Source of the DNA: a virus
Taxonomy: Duplodnaviria > Heunggongvirae > Uroviricota > Caudoviricetes
Length of the DNA stretch: 12,347 nucleotides
IMG/VR virus record: IMGVR_UViG_2541047882_000003
Span: 1 to 12,347 of that record
Strand: one strand, 5' to 3'
Of the stretch, positions 1 to 6,158 are shown one piece after another; position 1 is the first letter of the stretch, and every line of letters begins with the position of its first letter. The notes beneath the pieces are model-generated. The model saw only the letters and a list, made by a program, of their open reading frames with translations. It did no database searches and had not been told where the DNA came from. The position numbers were made by a program, and so were the translations under genes.

Positions 1-372
1 TTACTTCCTGCGTTTATCCTGCTTTGTATGCCCGTGCTGAATGCCCCGCAGTGGATCTTCTTTTTTCAGGTCGATCCCCATGTCCGTTAGTGTTTTTGTG
101 GCGGCGGTTCTTATGGCACAAATCAGGTCTCTTTCCGGTTCCCGGGTTATGGTTGCCTTCCGGATGCATGCCGTTCGTCGTTCCGTTACATACTGACGCG
201 CTTCATCACTTGCCGCCTGTTTCAGTAACTCACCCCAGCGATTAGCCGCCCGTCGCCATAAACCTTTCGCTTCCAGTTCTTCCGCTTTGTCATCATGCAC
301 CATAAGCATAATCCCATTGATACCTGTTAAATCTGAATGGTTGGTTTCTGTTCTTTTGATAATTTTCCGCAT
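1..372 (-). CDS. PerC-family-like small transcriptional regulator (paralog 1)
   Basis: Complete ORF of 123 aa (ATG as reverse complement of 370-372, TAA as reverse complement of 1-3). Motif DDKAEELEAKGLWRRAANRW matches the conserved core I associate with PerC/Pch activators and is shared with the 95-aa paralog at 4277..4564 (DSKAEELEAKGLYRRAAARW...CIR.A). No good SD at 372; alignment with the paralog suggests the real start may be the internal ATG at 303. Confidence 0.6.
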   Translation of the reverse strand: MRKIIKRTETNHSDLTGINGIMLMVHDDKAEELEAKGLWRRAANRWGELLKQAASDEARQYVTERRTACIRKATITREPERDLICAIRTAATKTLTDMGIDLKKEDPLRGIQHGHTKQDKRRK

Positions 373-417: not shown

Positions 418-708
418 ATGAGAATGACCAGGCACAAAAAACAGATCCTTGAACTCTACAAACCTGAGTATCGCGATTGGGTGCGGGTGGAGGCTGGAGA
501 TCCACCTTTTGATGTTCGTGGTGTTACAGTGCTGCTCTATGGTTCCGAATATCAGCGATATCACATAGAGGCAACACGAAGGACGCTAAACGCTATGGTT
601 CGTGATAAGTTGCTGGAGCGTGTGAAAGTCCGTGAGCCACGTTTTGATGTGCGTATTGGTGGCGATGGTGCGCATTGCACGGTAATCCGCTATGGCCTGG
701 TAAGGTAA
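418..708 (+). CDS. hypothetical protein (96 aa)
   Basis: ATG at 418 preceded by a strong SD, AAGGAG at 405-410 (7-nt spacer). The ORF ends about 70 nt before a stem-loop plus T-run. No family recognised. Confidence 0.6.
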   Translation: MRMTRHKKQILELYKPEYRDWVRVEAGDPPFDVRGVTVLLYGSEYQRYHIEATRRTLNAMVRDKLLERVKVREPRFDVRIGGDGAHCTVIRYGLVR

Positions 709-1101: not shown

Positions 1102-1390
1102 GGCCTCCAGAGGATGGGGAAACAATGCCGTAATTGTGGCGACTGATAACGGGAAGGTGAAGCGCGTTTAAGCTGGTGGATGTGGTGCCATGTTTCCCAC
1201 CAATGGTGGAAAAGCCCACCAGCGCAACGCAGGACGCATAAAACCATTGCGATGACTCATGACAGGGGGATAACCACAAAAACAACGTCAGCGGCGCGAT
1301 TCTGGCTGTTCCTGTCCGGGATGTGCATACGTATTACGTACGCAGTTAATCCGGCATAACGCATGACGTTGATGAAACGCCCCGATCATC

Positions 1391-1465
1391 GCGGGTCCTC
1401 CTGGATGGGTACCCTTACCGCGGGGCGACGGACGCGCGGAAAAAGGCTGGTTTTTGCATTTTCAT
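1391..1465 (+). other. cos-like site A (cosQ-like CGGGTCCTCCTGG, cosN-like dyad CCGCG-N10-CGCGG at 1418-1439); orphan, no terS downstream
   Basis: Alignable to the phage lambda cosQ-cosN junction as I remember it (lambda ACGGGTCCTTTCCGG...GTTACGGGGCGGCGACCTCGCGGG). The 36-bp core CCTTACCGCGGGGCGACGGACGCGCGGAAAAAGGCT is identical to inverted copy C at 4085..4170. Confidence 0.5.
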
Positions 1466-1865
1466 GGCGGCGGCAGCATGTGTGGTAATATATTGATAAT
1501 TAAAAGTTATTTCTGTTTTCACCTGTACAATCTTTTTTCTCCCCTGTCATTAGACCAGTTCGCAATCAATTGAAATATATAAATAAATCTGATTTTCACC
1601 TGCCAGATGGAGTTGCCAGTGTCAAATGTGAGCGGAAGCGGTGATGCTTATCACTGAATCATGCCGCATCACGATACCAGACTCCCGGTACCGCTGCGTG
1701 ATAACCCACAAGGCTGGTGGCGATGCGTTATGGTCCGTGCATTGCCATTCTCCTGGCCTGGTGGCATTATCCGGCATGAACGAGCGGTTATTCTCCGTAC
1801 TCTTAATCGTTGTTCATGGTTATTTTCTTTGTGGTAGCTGACTTCTTGATGTCCTTATCCTCCTG

Positions 1866-1890
1866 CCCCGTAATCACGGGGTATTTTTTT
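1866..1890 (+). terminator. rho-independent terminator (plus strand)
   Basis: CCCCG (1866-1870) / CGGGG (1877-1881) stem, 6-nt loop, followed by TATTTTTTT. The T-run is on the plus strand only. Confidence 0.5.
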
Positions 1891-2424
1891 ATCTGTGATT
1901 TGCTGTTCTTCGCTGTGTTGGTATGGGGAGTTCTGGCAATGGTTCAGGCCGTCGCTTTCCTGGTACGTGATTTTTTACGTTCATTATTGTGCTGGTGGCA
2001 GCGTCACGGTGTGTCACGACATGTCACCATCACGTCACGCTGATTGCGAAAGCCAGGATTAACCAGTACCGGAACGGGTAGCCCGGTGTATTGTTACCGT
2101 CCTGCCTGCTGGTGGAGTAATTGATAACGGTTATCATCAACGGGAGGGGCGGATCAAATCCCTGCAGTCCTGGCTGTCCGGGACCGCCCGCCTACCCTTG
2201 TTCACATCGCCGCAGGTTCGAAAACTTTTTTTTGGGAAGGTGTGCACAGACTTGATAGGTAAAACCTATCAGGTAAAGCCACGTCAAACCCGCGCCATTG
2301 CTGGCATCGTTAAAAAAACTCACTCCACCAGCAGGCTAAAAAACTGTGATTTTTCCAGCTTTTGGGGCTCAAAAAGGGCTCCCTAAAAAAACTCTCACAC
2401 TGTCGGAGGGGGCGGGAAATTTTC

Positions 2425-2640
2425 ACGGGTCCTTTCCGGGATCTGAAACACCGCGGGGCGGTAGACGCGCAGGATTTCACTATTTATGAAAATTTTTCAG
2501 GGGAAAAGCGTGTCGGTACTTCTCGCGCATAACTGTTTGTTTTTATTAAAATCAACCACCAGAAACATACGACATCATAAAGCCAAAAAATCCTGTTTTT
2601 TTGGCGTTTCATGTCGGAGGTGGTTTTTGATAATAAATTG
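2425..2640 (+). other. lambda-like cos site B (cosQ, cosN-like, cosB R3/I1-like elements); orphan, no terS downstream
   Basis: ACGGGTCCTTTCCGG at 2425-2439 is identical to the lambda cosQ 15-mer. After a 16-nt spacer comes CCGCGGGGCGGTAGACGCGC (lambda has GGGCGGCGACCT here). CTATTTATGAAAATTTT at 2480-2496 is identical to lambda positions just right of cosN. Further lambda-cosB-like text follows (CATAACT..GTTTTTATTAAAAT, then a dyad). The ORF at the Nu1-equivalent position is only 25 codons and unrelated to Nu1. Confidence 0.65.
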
Positions 2641-2756
2641 GTGGATTAATGTTAATAAAAATGTTTTTACTACCTGATGGAAACAACCGGAAACGTGCCG
2701 GAGAAATTACGGCAACAGAAAGGTGAGTGACAGCCGCGCAATTATTGAACAAAACT

Positions 2757-2953
2757 GAGAAAGGATCTGATAACGTCATTTTTGGCCCAAAATGCCTACT
2801 GTCAGATCCTTTCTTTTTTTGATGATTTTACGATTAAACAATGAGTTACAGAGAAGAAGAACGGATCTGACTTTTCCCGAAAAATTTTCATAAACAGTTA
2901 AGAATTGCGCGTACCCGTACCCCCGGCGCTTAAGGTTCCGGGAAGGACCCGCC
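2757..2953 (-). other. lambda-like cos site D, inverted relative to B (cosQ-like, cosN-like, R3-like, distal 13-bp inverted repeat)
   Basis: On the minus strand: GCGGGTCCTTCCCGG (reverse complement of 2938-2953), a GC dyad GCGCC..GCGC (reverse complement of 2905-2933), CTGTTTATGAAAATTTTTCG (reverse complement of 2878-2897, against lambda CTATTTATGAAAATTTTCCG), TCCGTTCTTCTTC..TAACT (against lambda TCCGTTCTTCTTCGTCATAACT), then a 13-bp perfect inverted repeat AGAAAGGATCTGA (2758-2770) / TCAGATCCTTTCT (2802-2814) resembling the lambda GAAAGGAAACGACAG...CTGTCGTTTCCTTTC dyad. Confidence 0.55.
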
Positions 2954-3067
2954 GGAGATAGCTACCATAAGGCGTAATTAAATATCCGTGGATGTGCCAC
3001 GGAACAACCAGCTGAATACAGGTCAGCGTGATGACGGGAAATAAAGAGAATGGTTGCGAATCCTCCA

Positions 3068-3092
3068 CCTGGTGAATCTCCTGCACTACCTG
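3068..3092. repeat. 25-bp direct repeat copy 1 (CCTGGTGAATCTCCTGCACTACCTG); duplicate of the terS 3-prime end
   Basis: Exact 25-bp match to 3444..3468, which encodes the last 8 codons of the terS-like gene. Copy 1 is not in an intact gene. Confidence 0.85.
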
Positions 3093-3364
3093 TCATTTTT
3101 GCGCAAATACCCCTGGCATTTCTAAGCATGATCAACCTGATCATTGTTCGCGGTTTTTACGTGGCAAGGCCAGTAATTACGGGGCTTACATCAATGTTTA
3201 TTCCGCCCATCTCTGCGCAAAACAACTTAACAAACCTTAACATCACAGGCGGAACCATTGCGCAAATCTGGAGGCTTACCGCACGCACCAGCCTGATACA
3301 TTGCCAGAATGAACGAGGTGCGACACAATGTGTGTGCATGTCTTACTCATTGAACCTCAATCAA

Positions 3365-3397
3365 GGCGCATCCTTAGCGGTGCGCTTTTATTTTTTT
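3365..3397 (+). terminator. candidate rho-independent terminator (plus strand)
   Basis: GCGCA (3365-3369) pairs with TGCGC (3380-3384), with possible extra CC/GG pairs, followed by TTTTATTTTTTTG. Confidence 0.4.
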
Positions 3398-3435
3398 GTC
3401 GTTCCCTGCTGGTGGATGTTTTCCGGTACCGCGAA

Positions 3436-3945
3436 TTATTCCCCCTGGTGAATCTCCTGCACTACCTGCGGCGTGCTGTCGTGCCAGTCGTTAGCCTGTA
3501 TCACTCTGGTAGTAATTTGCCTGCACAGGTCATCAATAATCTGCCTGACGCGGTTTACTGCGTTCTGATTGATGCCTGCATCGTGCGCCAGAATGTCGGG
3601 GAGTTTTGCCAGTTCCTCGCTTAAGATTTTCCCAAAAATAACCAACTCCCTGCGCACATCCACGGCGGGGATAAGTTCAGCCGTTTCCTGCTCGAACTTA
3701 AGGCGCTCACGCTCAGACTGGTACCAGGCTTTACGGCTTTGTGGATCCATGTCTTCGAGTGATGCGGGGGCGGGTATATTCATGAATGCGCTGATTATAT
3801 CCGTCAGTCGGTACAGCTTTAATTTTTCATGCCCTCCGGCTGGCTGAATGTCCTTTAGCCTTTTCGCTACTGTCTGGCGGCAAACTCCCGCCAGTTCTGC
3901 GAGTTGATTGATATTAAGTTTCAGGTTTTTAAGCTCCCGATCCAT
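3436..3945 (-). CDS. phage small terminase subunit, lambda Nu1 family (TerS-like); longest ORF extends to 3984
   Basis: N-terminal LNINQLAELAGVCRQTVAKRLKD...EKLKLYRLTDIISAF aligns with the lambda Nu1 winged-HTH region (VNKKQLADIFGASIRTIQNWQEQ...NEVLYDSAAVIKWY), and the length is similar (169-182 aa against 181). GGAGG lies 4 nt upstream of the ATG at 3945, so I favour that start. No large terminase ORF follows. Confidence 0.7.
   Translation of the reverse strand: MDRELKNLKLNINQLAELAGVCRQTVAKRLKDIQPAGGHEKLKLYRLTDIISAFMNIPAPASLEDMDPQSRKAWYQSERERLKFEQETAELIPAVDVRRELVIFGKILSEELAKLPDILAHDAGINQNAVNRVRQIIDDLCRQITTRVIQANDWHDSTPQVVQEIHQGE
3444..3468. repeat. 25-bp direct repeat copy 2 (within the terS 3-prime end)
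   Basis: Exact match to 3068..3092. Confidence 0.85.
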
Positions 3946-4084
3946 TCGTCCTCCGGTAGTTTTAAATGCGTATCGTGCGCTCATCTTTCAGTGGGTTAAA
4001 AGTGTTCTGTATGTTGAACAAAAAACACCCCAAATTAACATAGTAAAAATATATTTCATTTTAATTCAACATGTTGGAAAGATG

Positions 4085-4170
4085 ATGATGACGGATGAAA
4101 ATGTAAAAATTAGCCTTTTTCCGCGCGTCCGTCGCCCCGCGGTAAGGCCACCCCTCCGGAAGGACCCGTA
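4085..4170 (-). other. cos-like site C (inverted copy of A) about 140 bp upstream of the terS-like gene
   Basis: On the minus strand: ACGGGTCCTTCCGG (reverse complement of 4155-4168), then CCGCGGGGCGACGGACGCGCGG (reverse complement of 4120-4141), then AAAAAGGCT..ATTTTTACATTTTCAT. This is the lambda arrangement cosQ-cosN-cosB followed by Nu1, with similar spacing to the terS start. Confidence 0.55.
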
Positions 4171-4191
4171 AAAAAAGCCGGAGTGTTCCGG
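4169..4191 (-). terminator. rho-independent terminator after the PerC-like/FinO-like operon
   Basis: On the minus strand GCCGGAACACTCCGGC (6-bp stem, 4-nt loop) is followed by TTTTTTT, about 85 nt after the stop of 4277..4564. Confidence 0.6.
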
Positions 4192-4276
4192 CTTCGTCTG
4201 TGTATGTGCGCATATGCAGGATTTTATGTTATCCGCCCACGGGAGTGATGGTCATTTTTCAGGATAATATCCGGCA

Positions 4277-4564
4277 TCACTGGTTACCGCCAGGCTGCTT
4301 CGGGTAGTTCCGCCAGACGGATTTACCCGCGTCTTCCATCCCCATCACCGCATGAGTGCGGTTTACAGCCTCTTTCAGTGCCCCGAAGTTATCCGCCATA
4401 ACGGGTGGGCGTGCTGCCCTGCGGATGCATTCCGCGCGACGCTTTGCCACCTGTTCGCGCTCCTTATCGGTGTTCACCAGCTGCATGACCTCAGCCCACC
4501 GCGCCGCCGCTCTCCGGTACAGGCCTTTAGCCTCCAGTTCTTCCGCTTTGCTGTCACGAATCAT
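4277..4564 (-). CDS. PerC-family-like small transcriptional regulator (paralog 2)
   Basis: 95 aa with DSKAEELEAKGLYRRAAARWAEV, matching the paralog at 1..372. Its start overlaps the stop of the upstream gene (ATGA at 4561-4564), indicating translational coupling. Confidence 0.6.
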   Translation of the reverse strand: MIRDSKAEELEAKGLYRRAAARWAEVMQLVNTDKEREQVAKRRAECIRRAARPPVMADNFGALKEAVNRTHAVMGMEDAGKSVWRNYPKQPGGNQ

Positions 4565-5097
4565 GCGCCTGTCTTCTCCTTTGTCGCCTGACGTTTGCGC
4601 TTTTCATTCAGTGCTGCCAGCCGCGTTTCTGCCTCCTGCTGTTCCTGTGGTGTCACTTCCCCACATGGCTGGCCTTTCAGGTCGTAACGTGTGCCACCAG
4701 CCATTAAGGCGCGGTAATAGCGCGGAGACTGCGCATAAGATGCCAGCGTCGCACGTAATGCCCCCGGCCCGAATGTCAGCCCCCTGGCGGCGATATCCTG
4801 TATCAGGTCGTCGAATATCCCCACCTTAAGCGGCTTCGGTGCTTTATGGCTGAATAAGTCAGGCCACATCTCAGTGAGGCGGTTAACGCGTCGGCGGTTT
4901 TTGCGCTGCCTTTTGGTCATATGCTGCCACGGTGTCGCCCCTGCGGTCTTCTGTTTGCGGCTCTGCTGTGCGTTCTGATTATCGGGTATCACTTTATGCG
5001 CCGATGTGGTTTTATCCTGCTCTTGTGCCGCCTGCGTCGTTTTCTGCGGCGTGCCGTAAATGCCTTTCGGTTTTCGGTTAATGGTCAGCTTTGTCAT
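4561..5097 (-). CDS. ProQ/FinO-domain RNA-binding protein
   Basis: 178 aa. PLKVGIFDDLI and LRATLASYAQSPRYYRALMAGGTRYDLKGQPCGEVTPQEQQEAE align closely with the E. coli ProQ N-terminal FinO-like domain (PLKIGIFQDLV...LRSALRLYTSSWRYL..GATRVDLDGNPCGEL) as I remember it. It is preceded by a basic, Q/K-rich N-terminus. Confidence 0.8.
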   Translation of the reverse strand: MTKLTINRKPKGIYGTPQKTTQAAQEQDKTTSAHKVIPDNQNAQQSRKQKTAGATPWQHMTKRQRKNRRRVNRLTEMWPDLFSHKAPKPLKVGIFDDLIQDIAARGLTFGPGALRATLASYAQSPRYYRALMAGGTRYDLKGQPCGEVTPQEQQEAETRLAALNEKRKRQATKEKTGA

Positions 5098-5982: not shown

Positions 5983-6133
5983 TTTTGCGGGTTATAATCG
6001 CGCTTTTGCGGGTTATTTAGGCCCATTTGCGGGTTATTTGGGGTATTTTGCGGGTTACGATTTTTCTGTCATTTCTTTAATAATCATATGGATACTGACT
6101 TATCCACAGAAATAACCCGCATAACCCGCAAAA
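5983..6133. repeat. iteron array (TTTGCGGGTTA x4 direct at 21-22 bp spacing, plus 2 inverted copies) with an AT-rich spacer; candidate replication origin
   Basis: Direct copies of TTTTGCGGGTTAT at 5983-5995, 6004-6016, 6025-6037 and 6047-6058. AT-rich stretch 6061-6100. Inverted copies ATAACCCGC (6112-6120) and ATAACCCGCAAAA (6121-6133). Located immediately downstream of the replication-protein stop at 6159. Confidence 0.6.
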
Positions 6134-6158
6134 TTTTCACCCTACACGCGAGAAAAAA

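What the first reader, a model, noticed from the sequence alone, without database searches (positions are those of the whole stretch)
1286..3435. About 2 kb without convincing protein-coding genes but with several plus-strand intrinsic terminators
Besides the cos copies this stretch has clean terminators at 1866-1890 and 3365-3397, the hairpin plus T7 at 2757-2820, a T8 run at 2226-2233, and a 7-bp stem GATAGGT/ACCTATC at 2254-2270. An extended -10-like TGGTAATAT lies at 1483-1491 just after cos A. Mobile elements are usually gene-dense, so small RNAs or small proteins may be encoded here, for example the 66-aa ORF 1641-1841 that ends 25 nt before the 1866 terminator.
Basis: partly seen in the sequence, partly recalled or inferred. 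Interest (0 to 1): 0.4.

Follow-up and report, generated by a model that had tools for sequence, protein, structure and literature searches.

The report
Multi-phage packaging-site array of a satellite
The "gene-poor 2 kb" is the packaging-signal region of an E. coli phage satellite: it stacks cos sites copied from several different helper-phage types, with relics of their small-terminase genes, and contains one conserved candidate small-RNA unit.

Summary
The window is a ~13-kb PICI-type phage satellite of E. coli at tRNA-Pro. Interval 1286-3435 really lacks protein genes. No ORF hits Pfam or PHROGs, substitutions are mostly non-synonymous, and relatives carry frameshifts and stops.

About half of it is cis-acting packaging DNA. 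There are four cos sites: A (cdtI/HannyBb type), B (HK97 type), C (phage 21 type) and D (SerU-LTIIb type). A fifth, E (mEp460-like), lies at 3985-4168 beside an intact DUF1441 small-terminase gene. Stubs of terS genes lie between them.

- The hairpin+T7 at 2757-2820 is the R1/R2 pair of cosB of D.
- The T8 run and the GATAGGT/ACCTATC stem are conserved parts of the HK97-type cos.
- TGGTAATAT lies in cosB of A and is not conserved.

Terminators T1 (1864-1890) and T2 (3363-3397) are real: 2 found against 0.01 expected. T1 closes a conserved promoter-to-terminator unit (about 1776-1890), which is a candidate sRNA and remains untested. T2 travels with the DUF1441 cassette.

The cos sites form nested inverted pairs, and the DNA between them is found inverted in relatives. 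PICIs with two lambda-type cos sites are known; I found no description of a five-site, multi-specificity array. Packaging by several helpers is inferred, not shown.

The parts
1393..1434 (+). cos A: cosQ heptamer GGGTCCT (1393-1399) and the 12-nt cohesive-end segment GGGCGACGGACG (1423-1434)
   Evidence: Aligns with the left ends of phage cdtI and phage 21 and with the HannyBb cos. It is one arm of inverted repeat I1 with 4095-4168.
1435..1606 (+). cosB of cos A (cdtI/Tritos/HannyBb type). It has two TTTTCACCTG repeats (1516, 1593) at the same positions as in cdtI, and it contains the non-conserved TGGTAATAT (1483-1491).
   Evidence: 88-91% identical to phage genome left ends (alignment).
1607..1657 (+). 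5' stub of a phage DUF1441-type terS: 16 codons followed by a stop
   Evidence: tblastn shows cdtI TerS aa 1-16 at 75% identity at 1607-1654. Homology to the phage ends at 1656.
1742..1770 (+). Candidate sigma-70 promoter: TTGCCA, 17 nt, (TGn)CATTAT
   Evidence: Found by the scan. In 15 distinct relatives the hexamers are invariant (one TTGTCA variant), while the spacer varies at about 6 positions without indels.
1776..1890 (+). Candidate ~115-nt transcript (sRNA, or a leaderless 21-aa ORF at 1776-1841). It has a 5' 14-bp hairpin, a second hairpin, a variable linker and terminator T1.
   Evidence: Fold energy -31.3 kcal/mol, z -3.9. 1777-1825 is invariant except for one change that converts a G.U pair to A-U. 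No stem pair is broken and all other variation is in loops or the linker. There is no Rfam match.
1864..1890 (+). Intrinsic terminator T1
   Evidence: invariant in relatives.
1988..2118 (+). Satellite-specific spacer with a GTCAC/ATCAC array of ~10-bp period (2003-2042). It always accompanies cos B.
   Evidence: Read directly from the sequence. It co-travels with cos B in all relatives. A GTGAC x4 array sits upstream of the HK97-type cos in an unrelated PICI, L031.
2119..2297 (+). cos B: HK97-type cos region, with the T8 run (2226-2233) and the GATAGGT/ACCTATC stem (2254-2270). Its last ~26 nt are a degenerate stub of a P27-family terS.
   Evidence: 79-81% identical to the whole HNH-terS intergenic region of phi467 and vB_EcoM-606R7. 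It aligns across the HK97 genome-end junction. Homologues occur in 1089 of 5426 E. coli genomes, nearly always between HNH and P27-family terS genes.
2427..2467 (+). cos C: cosQ (2427-2433) and cohesive-end segment GGGCGGTAGACG (2456-2467)
   Evidence: Alignment with the phage 21 left end. It is one arm of inverted repeat I2.
2468..2644 (+). cosB of cos C (phage 21 specificity): R3 2506-2521, I1 2530-2542, R2 2564-2579, R1 2607-2623
   Evidence: R3 matches phage 21 R3 at 15 of 16 positions. Element positions match the OL657228 annotation. R elements are invariant while spacers vary in 13 distinct sequences.
2645..2721 (+). Relic of a Nu1-type terS. The start is mutated (ATG to ATT), 506 bp are deleted at 2662/2669, and the last 16 codons plus the stop remain.
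   Evidence: The gene is intact (585-603 bp) in L002, L007, L008 and others. tblastn places the relic. The intact relative hits lambda TerS chain 6hn7_B with E 1.6e-38.
2756..2909 (-). cosB of cos D (SerU-LTIIb type, 'AGATCC' R elements): R3 2856-2873, R2 2800-2815, R1 2756-2772.
   Evidence: Positions match the phage 21 R3/R2/R1 coordinates. The same R elements occur in the SerU-LTIIb prophage upstream of its own terS. They are invariant even in an O157:H7 PICI that is 84% identical overall.
2910..2950 (-). cos D: cohesive-end segment (about 2910-2923) and cosQ (2944-2950)
3063..3092 (-). Duplicated 3' end (last 10 codons) of a DUF1441 terS
   Evidence: Direct repeat D9, 97% identical to 3440-3468; tblastn.
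3131..3435 (+). Non-coding tail of the DUF1441 cassette, with terminator T2 (3363-3397) and a promoter-like TTGCCA-17-CACAAT (3301-3329)
   Evidence: The block 3131-4009 is present or absent as one unit among relatives. The block occurs in only 24 E. coli genomes, with almost no diversity.
3436..3984 (-). Intact small-terminase gene of the DUF1441 family. It lies outside the finding but is part of the array. RefSeq starts it at 3945.
   Evidence: Pfam DUF1441 E 4.7e-35; phrog_141 'terminase small subunit' E 2e-55; 35% identical to cdtI TerS.
3985..4168 (-). cos E: cosB (3985-4125), cohesive-end segment (4126-4137) and cosQ. It is preceded by the minus-strand terminator 4193-4176 that ends the perC operon.
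   Evidence: Inverted repeat I1. It is ~71% identical to the cos-terS region of PhiR40_1/mEp460-like phages, and the mEp460_4F5 record starts at this cos.

Best explanation
The interval is the core of a packaging-signal array of a PICI-type phage satellite. It is gene-poor because about half of it is cis-acting DNA.

Shown:
- There are five cos sites in 2.8 kb (1392-4168).
- Four are lambda-type cosQ-cosN-cosB sites. Their cosB specificities match four different phage groups: A = cdtI/HannyBb, C = phage 21, D = SerU-LTIIb, E = mEp460-like.
- One (B) is an HK97-type cos.
- Each was evidently captured together with the start of the neighbouring phage terS gene. Stubs remain next to A, B and C, and a full DUF1441 terS remains next to E. 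Relatives keep a full Nu1-type terS next to C.

Inferred:
- After helper induction the satellite replicates as concatemers, and the terminase of whichever helper family is present finds a cognate cos and packages the satellite.
- The satellite's own TerS homologues probably pair with helper TerL.

Three are cos subsites. T2 is the tail-to-tail terminator that moves with the DUF1441 cassette. T1 ends a conserved ~115-nt promoter-to-terminator unit that most likely makes a small RNA (probability about 0.45), conceivably a partner of the satellite's ProQ/FinO protein.

The cos cores form two nested inverted pairs (A/E and C/D). Recombination between them has inverted the enclosed DNA in natural relatives.
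For: Element identity:
- The closest E. coli match (99.4%) is annotated with an integrase at tRNA-Pro, a DUF927 primase-helicase, SSB, ProQ/FinO, two PerC genes and DUF1441.

cos homology to phage genome ends or annotated cos sites:
-.

Selection on the cos sites:
- cosQ GGGTCCT and the nick-flanking bases are kept in all four lambda-type copies in every relative.
- R3, R2 and R1 of C and D are invariant while the spacers diverge, even in an unrelated O157 PICI.

terS relics:
-.

Non-coding status:
-.

Array conservation and rearrangement:
- The same five-site array is found in 18 relatives from E. coli genomes, metagenomes and IMG/VR.
- The whole array occurs in both orientations relative to the backbone. 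The flipped state is in L011, L017, L018, L021, L022 and L025.
- The C/D segment is flipped in L010 and L023.

T1 unit:
-.

Candidate helpers are common:
- The HK97-type site occurs in 1089 of 5426 genomes, next to HNH and P27-family terS genes.
Against: - No experiment shows that any of these sites is cut or used.
- The 12-nt cohesive-end sequences differ from those of the matching phages. For example, A is GGGCGACGGACG against cdtI/HannyBb GGGCGGGAGCGT (5 of 12 differ). C differs from phage 21 at 4 of 12. Helper TerL may therefore cut them poorly.
- In this window the Nu1-type terS is deleted and two other terS genes are stubs, which shows decay.
- cos sites of one orientation lie about 1 kb apart. 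This could cause termination at a non-matching site and give ends that cannot anneal.
- About half of the interval (1655-2118, 2298-2425, 2964-3435) has no phage homologue, and apart from T1 it is not explained.
- For the T1 RNA there is no compensatory covariation, no Rfam family and no predicted target. The two changes seen also fit a 21-aa ORF (ATG to GTG; GAG to GAA).
Confidence: 0.78

Rival explanations
1. cos graveyard. The array is debris left by repeated recombination with helper phages at the conserved cosQ-cosN core. Only one site (probably E, with its intact DUF1441 terS) is used, and the others are decaying passengers.
For: - There are terS stubs at 1607-1657, about 2272-2297 and 3063-3092, and a 506-bp deletion of the Nu1-type terS in this window.
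- The cohesive-end sequences differ from those of the matching phages.
- The DUF1441 cassette and cos D are missing in some relatives.
Against: - All five sites are kept in nearly all 18 relatives.
- cosQ, the nick-flanking bases and the R elements are invariant while neighbouring spacers diverge 10-18%.
- cosB of A stays 93-99% conserved.
- The HK97-type site keeps the positions that are conserved with phages.
- Neutral debris would not show this pattern.
Confidence: 0.2
2. One reading: the interval is mainly a set of small-RNA or small-protein genes, each ending at one of the plus-strand terminators.
For: - T1 and T2 are well above chance.
- A conserved promoter-like site lies 94 nt upstream of T1, and the intervening sequence is strongly conserved and structured.
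- A weaker promoter-like site lies 34 nt upstream of T2.
- The element encodes a ProQ/FinO RNA-binding protein.
Against: - Three of the five cited features are cos subsites.
- The ORFs fail conservation tests.
- There are no Rfam, Pfam or PHROG matches.
- At most about 180 of the 2150 nt would be transcribed into such RNAs.
Confidence: 0.1
3. Programmed inversion switch. The inverted cos pairs act as recombination sites, and flipping them changes which terS is expressed or in which direction the satellite is packaged.
For: Both orientations of the whole array and of the C/D segment occur among close relatives. The breakpoints fall inside the 74-76-bp inverted cos cores.
Against: - No invertase or recombinase gene lies next to the array.
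- After inversion each outer cos still has a complete cosQ-cosN-cosB pointing into the array, so little would change functionally.
- Ordinary homologous recombination between 74-bp repeats of 74-89% identity is enough to explain the inversions.
- Orientation follows lineage, and mixed populations were not examined.
Confidence: 0.07

Closest known systems
EcCICFT073-type Gram-negative PICIs with cos1/cos2 and Rpp (Fillol-Salom 2018, PMC6092414; Fillol-Salom 2019, PMC6739421; Murialdo & Feiss 2022, PMC9026076)
   Same: Both are satellites with an integrase, a primase-helicase and iterons, about 13 kb long, that carry lambda-like cosQ and cosN and depend on helper terminase. Both have more than one cos site per element.
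   Different: - The known elements have one or two lambda-type sites whose cosB is non-phage (R3-like only). That cosB is read by an Rpp-TerS heterodimer.
- Here there are five sites. Four have full phage-type cosB architecture with four specificities, and one is an HK97-type site.
- This family carries TerS homologues (DUF1441 and, in relatives, Nu1-type) rather than a detectable Rpp.
Phage cos regions: lambda/21 (cosQ-cosN-cosB with R3, I1, R2, R1), cdtI/mEp460 (DUF1441 TerS) and HK97 (HNH-cos-terS)
   Same: The sequence is homologous and the sub-site spacing is the same. The R2/R1 inverted pair followed by a T-run is also a feature of lambda cosB (lambda sequence recalled from memory).
   Different: In a phage there is one cos, followed by terS and terL. 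Here the sites are stacked, mostly without functional terS and with no terL, and the internal cohesive-end bases differ from the phage versions.
Cos-type SaPIs (SaPIbov5, SaPIbov4)
   Same: Both are satellites that carry the helper's cos site so that helper terminase packages them. SaPIbov4 is reported to have two putative cos sites (PMC6092414).
   Different: They are Gram-positive and use a single helper cos type. No array or inverted pairs are described.
Satellite small RNAs: P4 CI RNA (from memory) and the PLE sRNA of Vibrio cholerae (bioRxiv 10.1101/2022.04.08.487710)
   Same: They are precedents for satellites using small RNAs in helper or satellite gene control. The T1 unit has the same promoter, structured RNA and terminator layout.
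   Different: The T1 unit has no sequence or Rfam relationship to them, and no target or expression evidence.

Membership tests
lambda-type cos site | cosQ heptamer about 25-30 bp upstream of the nick region | tested here: met
   GGGTCCT is present in A, C, D and E, and in all four copies of every relative.
lambda-type cos site | cosN: a 12-nt cohesive-end segment that aligns with phage genome termini | tested here: inconclusive
   It aligns base-for-base with the left ends of phage 21 and cdtI, and the flanking bases are conserved. However, 4-5 of the 12 internal bases differ from the matching phage.
lambda-type cos site | cosB with R3, IHF site I1, inverted R2 and R1 at fixed distances from cosN | tested here: met
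   Met for C (R3 15/16 identical to phage 21) and for D (AGATCC-type elements at the phage 21 coordinates). A shares its repeated TTTTCACCTG elements with cdtI.
lambda-type cos site | Cleavage and packaging by a terminase in vivo | not testable with these tools
   This needs transduction and end-mapping experiments.
HK97-type (HNH-dependent) cos site | Homology to the HNH-terS intergenic region, including the genome-end junction | tested here: met
   79-81% identity to phi467 and 606R7 across the entire intergenic region. The motif GGGGCGGATCAAATC...GACCGCC aligns across the HK97 end junction. The genomic context in 1089 genomes is.
HK97-type (HNH-dependent) cos site | Adjacent HNH endonuclease and P27-family terS/terL | tested here: not met
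   The satellite has no HNH gene and only a degenerate ~26-nt terS stub. These proteins would have to come from a helper.
Gram-negative PICI | Integrase at a specific att site, own replication module with iterons, size about 10-15 kb, no virion structural genes | tested here: met
   Integrase next to tRNA-Pro, a DUF927 primase-helicase, 21-bp-spaced TTTGCGGGTTA iterons at 5984-6057, and SSB. IMG/VR relatives are 11-13.7 kb.
Gram-negative PICI | Helper-phage-dependent induction and transfer | not testable with these tools
   No experimental data are available here.
Rpp-dependent PICI packaging (EcCICFT073 type) | An Rpp protein and a cosB that lacks the phage R2/R1 elements | tested here: not met
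   The two small ORFs beside the array do not hit RppC in the PDB. The relatives' terS hits lambda TerS, not RppC. C and D have a full R3-I1-R2-R1 set. Other window ORFs were not screened for Rpp.
Rho-independent terminator | G+C-rich hairpin followed by a U-tract, conserved, at the end of a transcription unit | tested here: met
   T1 and T2. T1 is invariant in 15 relatives. Termination in vivo was not testable.
Known sRNA families (Rfam 15) | Covariance-model match at or near the gathering score | tested here: not met
   Nothing in the interval scores better than E 3, and all hits are far below gathering scores.

The most novel reading that the evidence does not exclude
A phage satellite keeps a modular, recombining array of five packaging sites with five specificities from three small-terminase families (Nu1, DUF1441 and P27/HNH). 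Unrelated helper phages could therefore each package it. The inverted cos pairs drive capture, loss and inversion of modules. A satellite-encoded sRNA (the T1 unit), possibly working with the satellite's ProQ/FinO protein, belongs to the same module. [quoted passage not shown]
Probability: 0.35. Interest if true: 0.7.

Novelty: new variant of a known kind. Interest (0 to 1): 0.5.

Why it matters
Satellites such as PICIs move virulence and defence genes at very high frequency, and the range of helpers that can package them limits their spread. Published E. coli PICIs rely on one helper family, through Rpp and one or two lambda-type cos sites. Why some have two sites was left as an open question (PMC6739421).

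An element that stacks cos sites for several phage families, including the HK97 type that is insensitive to Rpp, suggests a simple way to widen helper range. The idea can be tested directly with cos-plasmid transduction assays. It also shows the conserved cosQ-cosN core acting as a recombination point for exchanging modules between phages and satellites.

For annotation, it warns that 'empty' regions with hairpins and T-runs in mobile elements may be packaging sites rather than RNA genes.

Tried and rejected
- Known RNA families and tRNAs: Rfam on the whole window and on the interval with lax filters gave nothing relevant, and there are no tRNA or tmRNA genes.
- Protein families for ORFs in the interval: Pfam and PHROGs on all ORFs of 40 aa or more gave no hits.
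- Decayed terL next to T2, or other terS remnants: none found by tblastn.
- Phage origin of blocks 1650-2125 and 2950-3440: no match in 50,697 phage records.
- More diversity for the T1 block:
  - No hit in GTDB species representatives.
  - 5 metagenome loci and 7 IMG/VR loci, all close relatives.
  - As a result there are only two informative substitutions and no compensatory pairs.
- T2 block: only 24 E. coli genomes carry it, at 97.7% identity or more, so its promoter-like site could not be tested.
- Target search for the T1 RNA: RNAduplex against translation-start regions of window genes and of helper terS/terL genes gave nothing beyond shuffled controls (best z -1.4).
- Rpp hypothesis for the ORFs flanking the array (811-1095 and 418-708): no PDB match to RppC.
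- Idea that cos B mimics a capsid-forming PICI: the small 'phage' record ON470600 that matched is a partial phage genome with tail genes, not a cf-PICI. The idea was dropped.
- Extended -10 at 1483-1491: rejected because it is not conserved.
- First strict terminator scan: it allowed no G.U pairs and missed T1 and T2. It was redone with G.U pairs allowed.
- Literature: six full-text searches found no description of a multi-type cos array in a satellite. The library is incomplete.
Full report
**What the window is**

The interval matches 21 complete E. coli genomes over at least 80% of its length, with a best identity of 99.4%. In strain PSS-15 the surrounding DNA lies between yejO/narP and tRNA-Pro. 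Its genes are almost all on the minus strand of the window. They encode an integrase, small HTH regulators, an Icd-like protein, a DUF927 primase-helicase, SSB, a ProQ/FinO protein, two PerC regulators and a DUF1441 protein (Pfam confirmation). Iterons (TTTGCGGGTTA at 21-bp spacing, 5984-6057, with inverted copies at 6110-6134) lie upstream of the primase-helicase gene. IMG/VR holds relatives as 11-13.7-kb units. This is a PICI-type phage satellite.

**Is the interval non-coding?**

Yes, on three lines of evidence:
- None of the ORFs of 40 aa or more in 1286-3435 matches Pfam or PHROGs. The neighbouring 3436-3984 gene matches phrog_141 'terminase small subunit' at E 2e-55.
- Against twelve relatives, the ORFs in the interval show non-synonymous changes outnumbering synonymous ones by 3-6 to 1, plus frameshifting indels and premature stops. 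Flanking genes look like real genes, for example 811-1095 with S15/N4.
Its 47-aa core has 6 of 6 non-synonymous changes against L008. One lineage loses both its start (a 28-bp deletion) and its stop.

**What fills the interval: cos sites**

Repeat finding shows two nested inverted pairs: 1392-1465 with 4095-4168 (89%), and 2426-2501 with 2876-2951 (74%). Aligned with the left ends of phages 21 and cdtI, all four copies have a cosQ heptamer GGGTCCT, a 12-nt cohesive-end segment and a cosB. The individual sites are as follows.

- **cos A (+).** It is 88-91% identical to the genome ends of cdtI, Tritos and HannyBb through 1656. This stretch includes the two TTTTCACCTG repeats and the first 16 codons of the phage DUF1441 terS, after which there is a stop.
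- **cos C (+).** It has phage 21 specificity. R3 matches at 15 of 16 positions, and I1, R2 and R1 sit at the annotated phage 21 coordinates. In relatives it is followed by an intact Nu1-type terS. In this window 506 bp of that gene are deleted, leaving a mutated start and the last 16 codons.
- **cos D (-).** It has lambda architecture but 'AGATCC' R elements. The SerU-LTIIb prophage has the same elements upstream of its own terS.
- **cos E (-).** It lies just outside the interval and precedes the intact DUF1441 terS. It is about 71% identical to the cos-terS region of mEp460-like phages.
- **cos B (+, 2119-2297).** It is the complete HNH-terS intergenic region of HK97-like phages (79-81% identity) and aligns across the HK97 genome-end junction. 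Homologues occur in 1089 of 5426 E. coli genomes, nearly always between an HNH gene and a P27-family terS gene.

A duplicated 3' end of a DUF1441 gene lies at 3063-3092.

**Are the sites under selection?**

In 13-14 distinct sequences, R3, R2 and R1 of C and D are invariant while the spacers diverge. For D this holds even in an unrelated O157:H7 PICI that is 84% identical overall. cosQ and the nick-flanking bases are kept in all four lambda-type copies of all relatives. This argues against pure debris.

Two points argue the other way. The internal cohesive-end bases differ from the matching phages at 4-5 of 12 positions, and three terS genes have decayed. Function is therefore inferred, not shown.

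- **Hairpin plus T7 at 2757-2820.** This is R1 (2756-2772) and inverted R2 (2800-2815) of cos D, read on the other strand. In relatives it also sits directly after the stop codon of the Nu1-type terS.
- **T8 run and GATAGGT/ACCTATC stem.** These are invariant positions shared by the satellite and phage HK97-type cos regions.
- **TGGTAATAT at 1483-1491.** This is the most variable spot of cosB of A.
- **T1 and T2.** Both are genuine terminators. A strict scan finds exactly these two in the interval, against 0.01 expected.

**T1 and the candidate small RNA**

The block 1655-2118 has no phage homologue. It occurs in only 28 E. coli genomes, and in relatives it always sits between the first cos and cos B.

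Within it, TTGCCA (1742-1747) and TGnCATTAT (ending at 1770) are invariant in 15 distinct sequences, while the 17-nt spacer varies at about six positions with no length change. This is the usual signature of a working promoter.

From about 1776 the next 50 nt are invariant apart from G1784A. They fold into a 14-bp hairpin that starts at the predicted +1, followed by a second hairpin, a variable linker with indels, and T1. The fold energy is -31.3 kcal/mol with z -3.9.

No stem pair is broken in any relative, and the two substitutions in stems keep pairing (A-U to G.U, and G.U to A-U). There is no compensatory double change. Both changes also fit a leaderless 21-aa ORF (ATG to GTG; GAG to GAA), although one lineage loses its stop.

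I rate a discrete transcript here at about 0.6, and an sRNA rather than a peptide mRNA at about 0.45 overall. No Rfam family matches and no target emerged. The link to the satellite's ProQ/FinO protein is speculation.

**T2**

The block 3131-4009 (T2 tail plus DUF1441 terS) is present or absent as one unit among relatives. T2 lies 48 nt beyond the terS stop on the opposite strand. It would stop plus-strand transcription, for example from the Nu1-type terS of relatives, before it runs antisense into the DUF1441 gene. A promoter-like TTGCCA-17-CACAAT sits 34 nt upstream, but the available sequences are too similar to test it.

**Rearrangements**

Relative to the backbone (perC ... orf94), the whole array is found in both orientations:
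- Window-like: L002, L007, L008, L016, L019, L024, L026.
- Flipped: L011, L017, L018, L021, L022, L025.

The inner C/D segment is flipped in L010 and L023. The breakpoints lie in the inverted cos cores. Ordinary homologous recombination is the simplest cause.

**Comparison with the literature**

EcCICFT073 carries two lambda-type cos sites with a non-phage cosB. [quoted passage not shown]

This element differs in four ways. It has five sites. Its cosB regions are phage-type, with four specificities. It has an HK97-type site. It carries TerS homologues instead of a detectable Rpp.

A second, CFT073-like PICI family also combines a lambda-type and an HK97-type cos, so mixed arrays may be widespread. 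Six full-text searches found no description of such arrays, but the library is incomplete.

**Verdict**

I classify it as a new variant of a known kind, of moderate interest.

Noticed in passing
whole window, e.g. 1037, 1172, 1713, 1991, 2108, 3408 (+) and 765, 1216, 2325 (-): The Chi sequence GCTGGTGG occurs 23 times in 12,347 bp (12 on +, 11 on -), against 0.41 expected from shuffles. The 'TTGCCTGCTGGTGG' repeat family is simply Chi with flanking context. This may protect a cos-cut linear satellite that has no Gam from RecBCD. Chi enrichment in phages lacking recombination or anti-RecBCD functions is described in PMC3784561 (judged from its title and abstract only).
   Followed up: partly
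window 1392-4168; relatives L010, L011, L017, L018, L021-L023, L025: The DNA between the inverted cos pairs is found inverted in natural relatives. This applies to the whole array (A/E pair) and to the inner segment holding the Nu1-type terS (C/D pair).
   Followed up: yes
window 2003-2042; L031 about 3826-3864: A GTCAC/ATCAC array of ~10-bp period lies 80-115 bp upstream of the HK97-type cos. An unrelated PICI family has a GTGAC x4 array upstream of its own HK97-type cos, in the opposite orientation. Phages have the HNH gene at that position. It may be a satellite-specific protein-binding site.
   Followed up: partly
window 2662/2669, compared with L007 4377-4883: The window (like L001, L012, L020 and L026) has a clean 506-bp deletion of the Nu1-type terS, which is intact in most relatives. 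L011 also lacks it. Its start codon is also changed from ATG to ATT.
   Followed up: yes
L028 5175-5717 and L007 4360-4944: PICI-encoded Nu1-type TerS proteins from two PICI families share a similar C-terminal half but have unrelated N-terminal DNA-binding domains. One has the phage 21-type 'VDPRTIERWQ' helix and the other does not. This suggests domain swapping of packaging specificity.
   Followed up: no
window 4561-5097 (-), 1-372 (-), 4277-4564 (-): The satellite encodes a ProQ/FinO-family RNA-binding protein (Pfam E 7.6e-25) and two PerC-family regulators. The ProQ gene evolves fast (S79/N160 across relatives).
   Followed up: partly
window 5984-6057 and 6110-6134: There are four TTTGCGGGTTA iterons at 21-bp spacing, plus inverted copies, upstream of the DUF927 primase-helicase gene. 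This is the likely replication origin.
   Followed up: no
L001 14893-17195 (corresponds to just right of window 4168): In strain PSS-15 an IS21-family element (ISEc12) is inserted immediately next to cosQ of cos E, between the array and perC.
   Followed up: no
window 418-708 (+): A conserved 96-aa ORF of unknown function (S8/N2 across relatives) has an internal 40-nt direct repeat (480-519 and 615-654). It has no Pfam or PDB match.
   Followed up: partly
window 4176-4193 (-) and 2985-3003 (-): A minus-strand terminator-like hairpin lies directly upstream of cosQ of both cos E and cos D, so transcription from the backbone appears to stop just before each cos.
   Followed up: no
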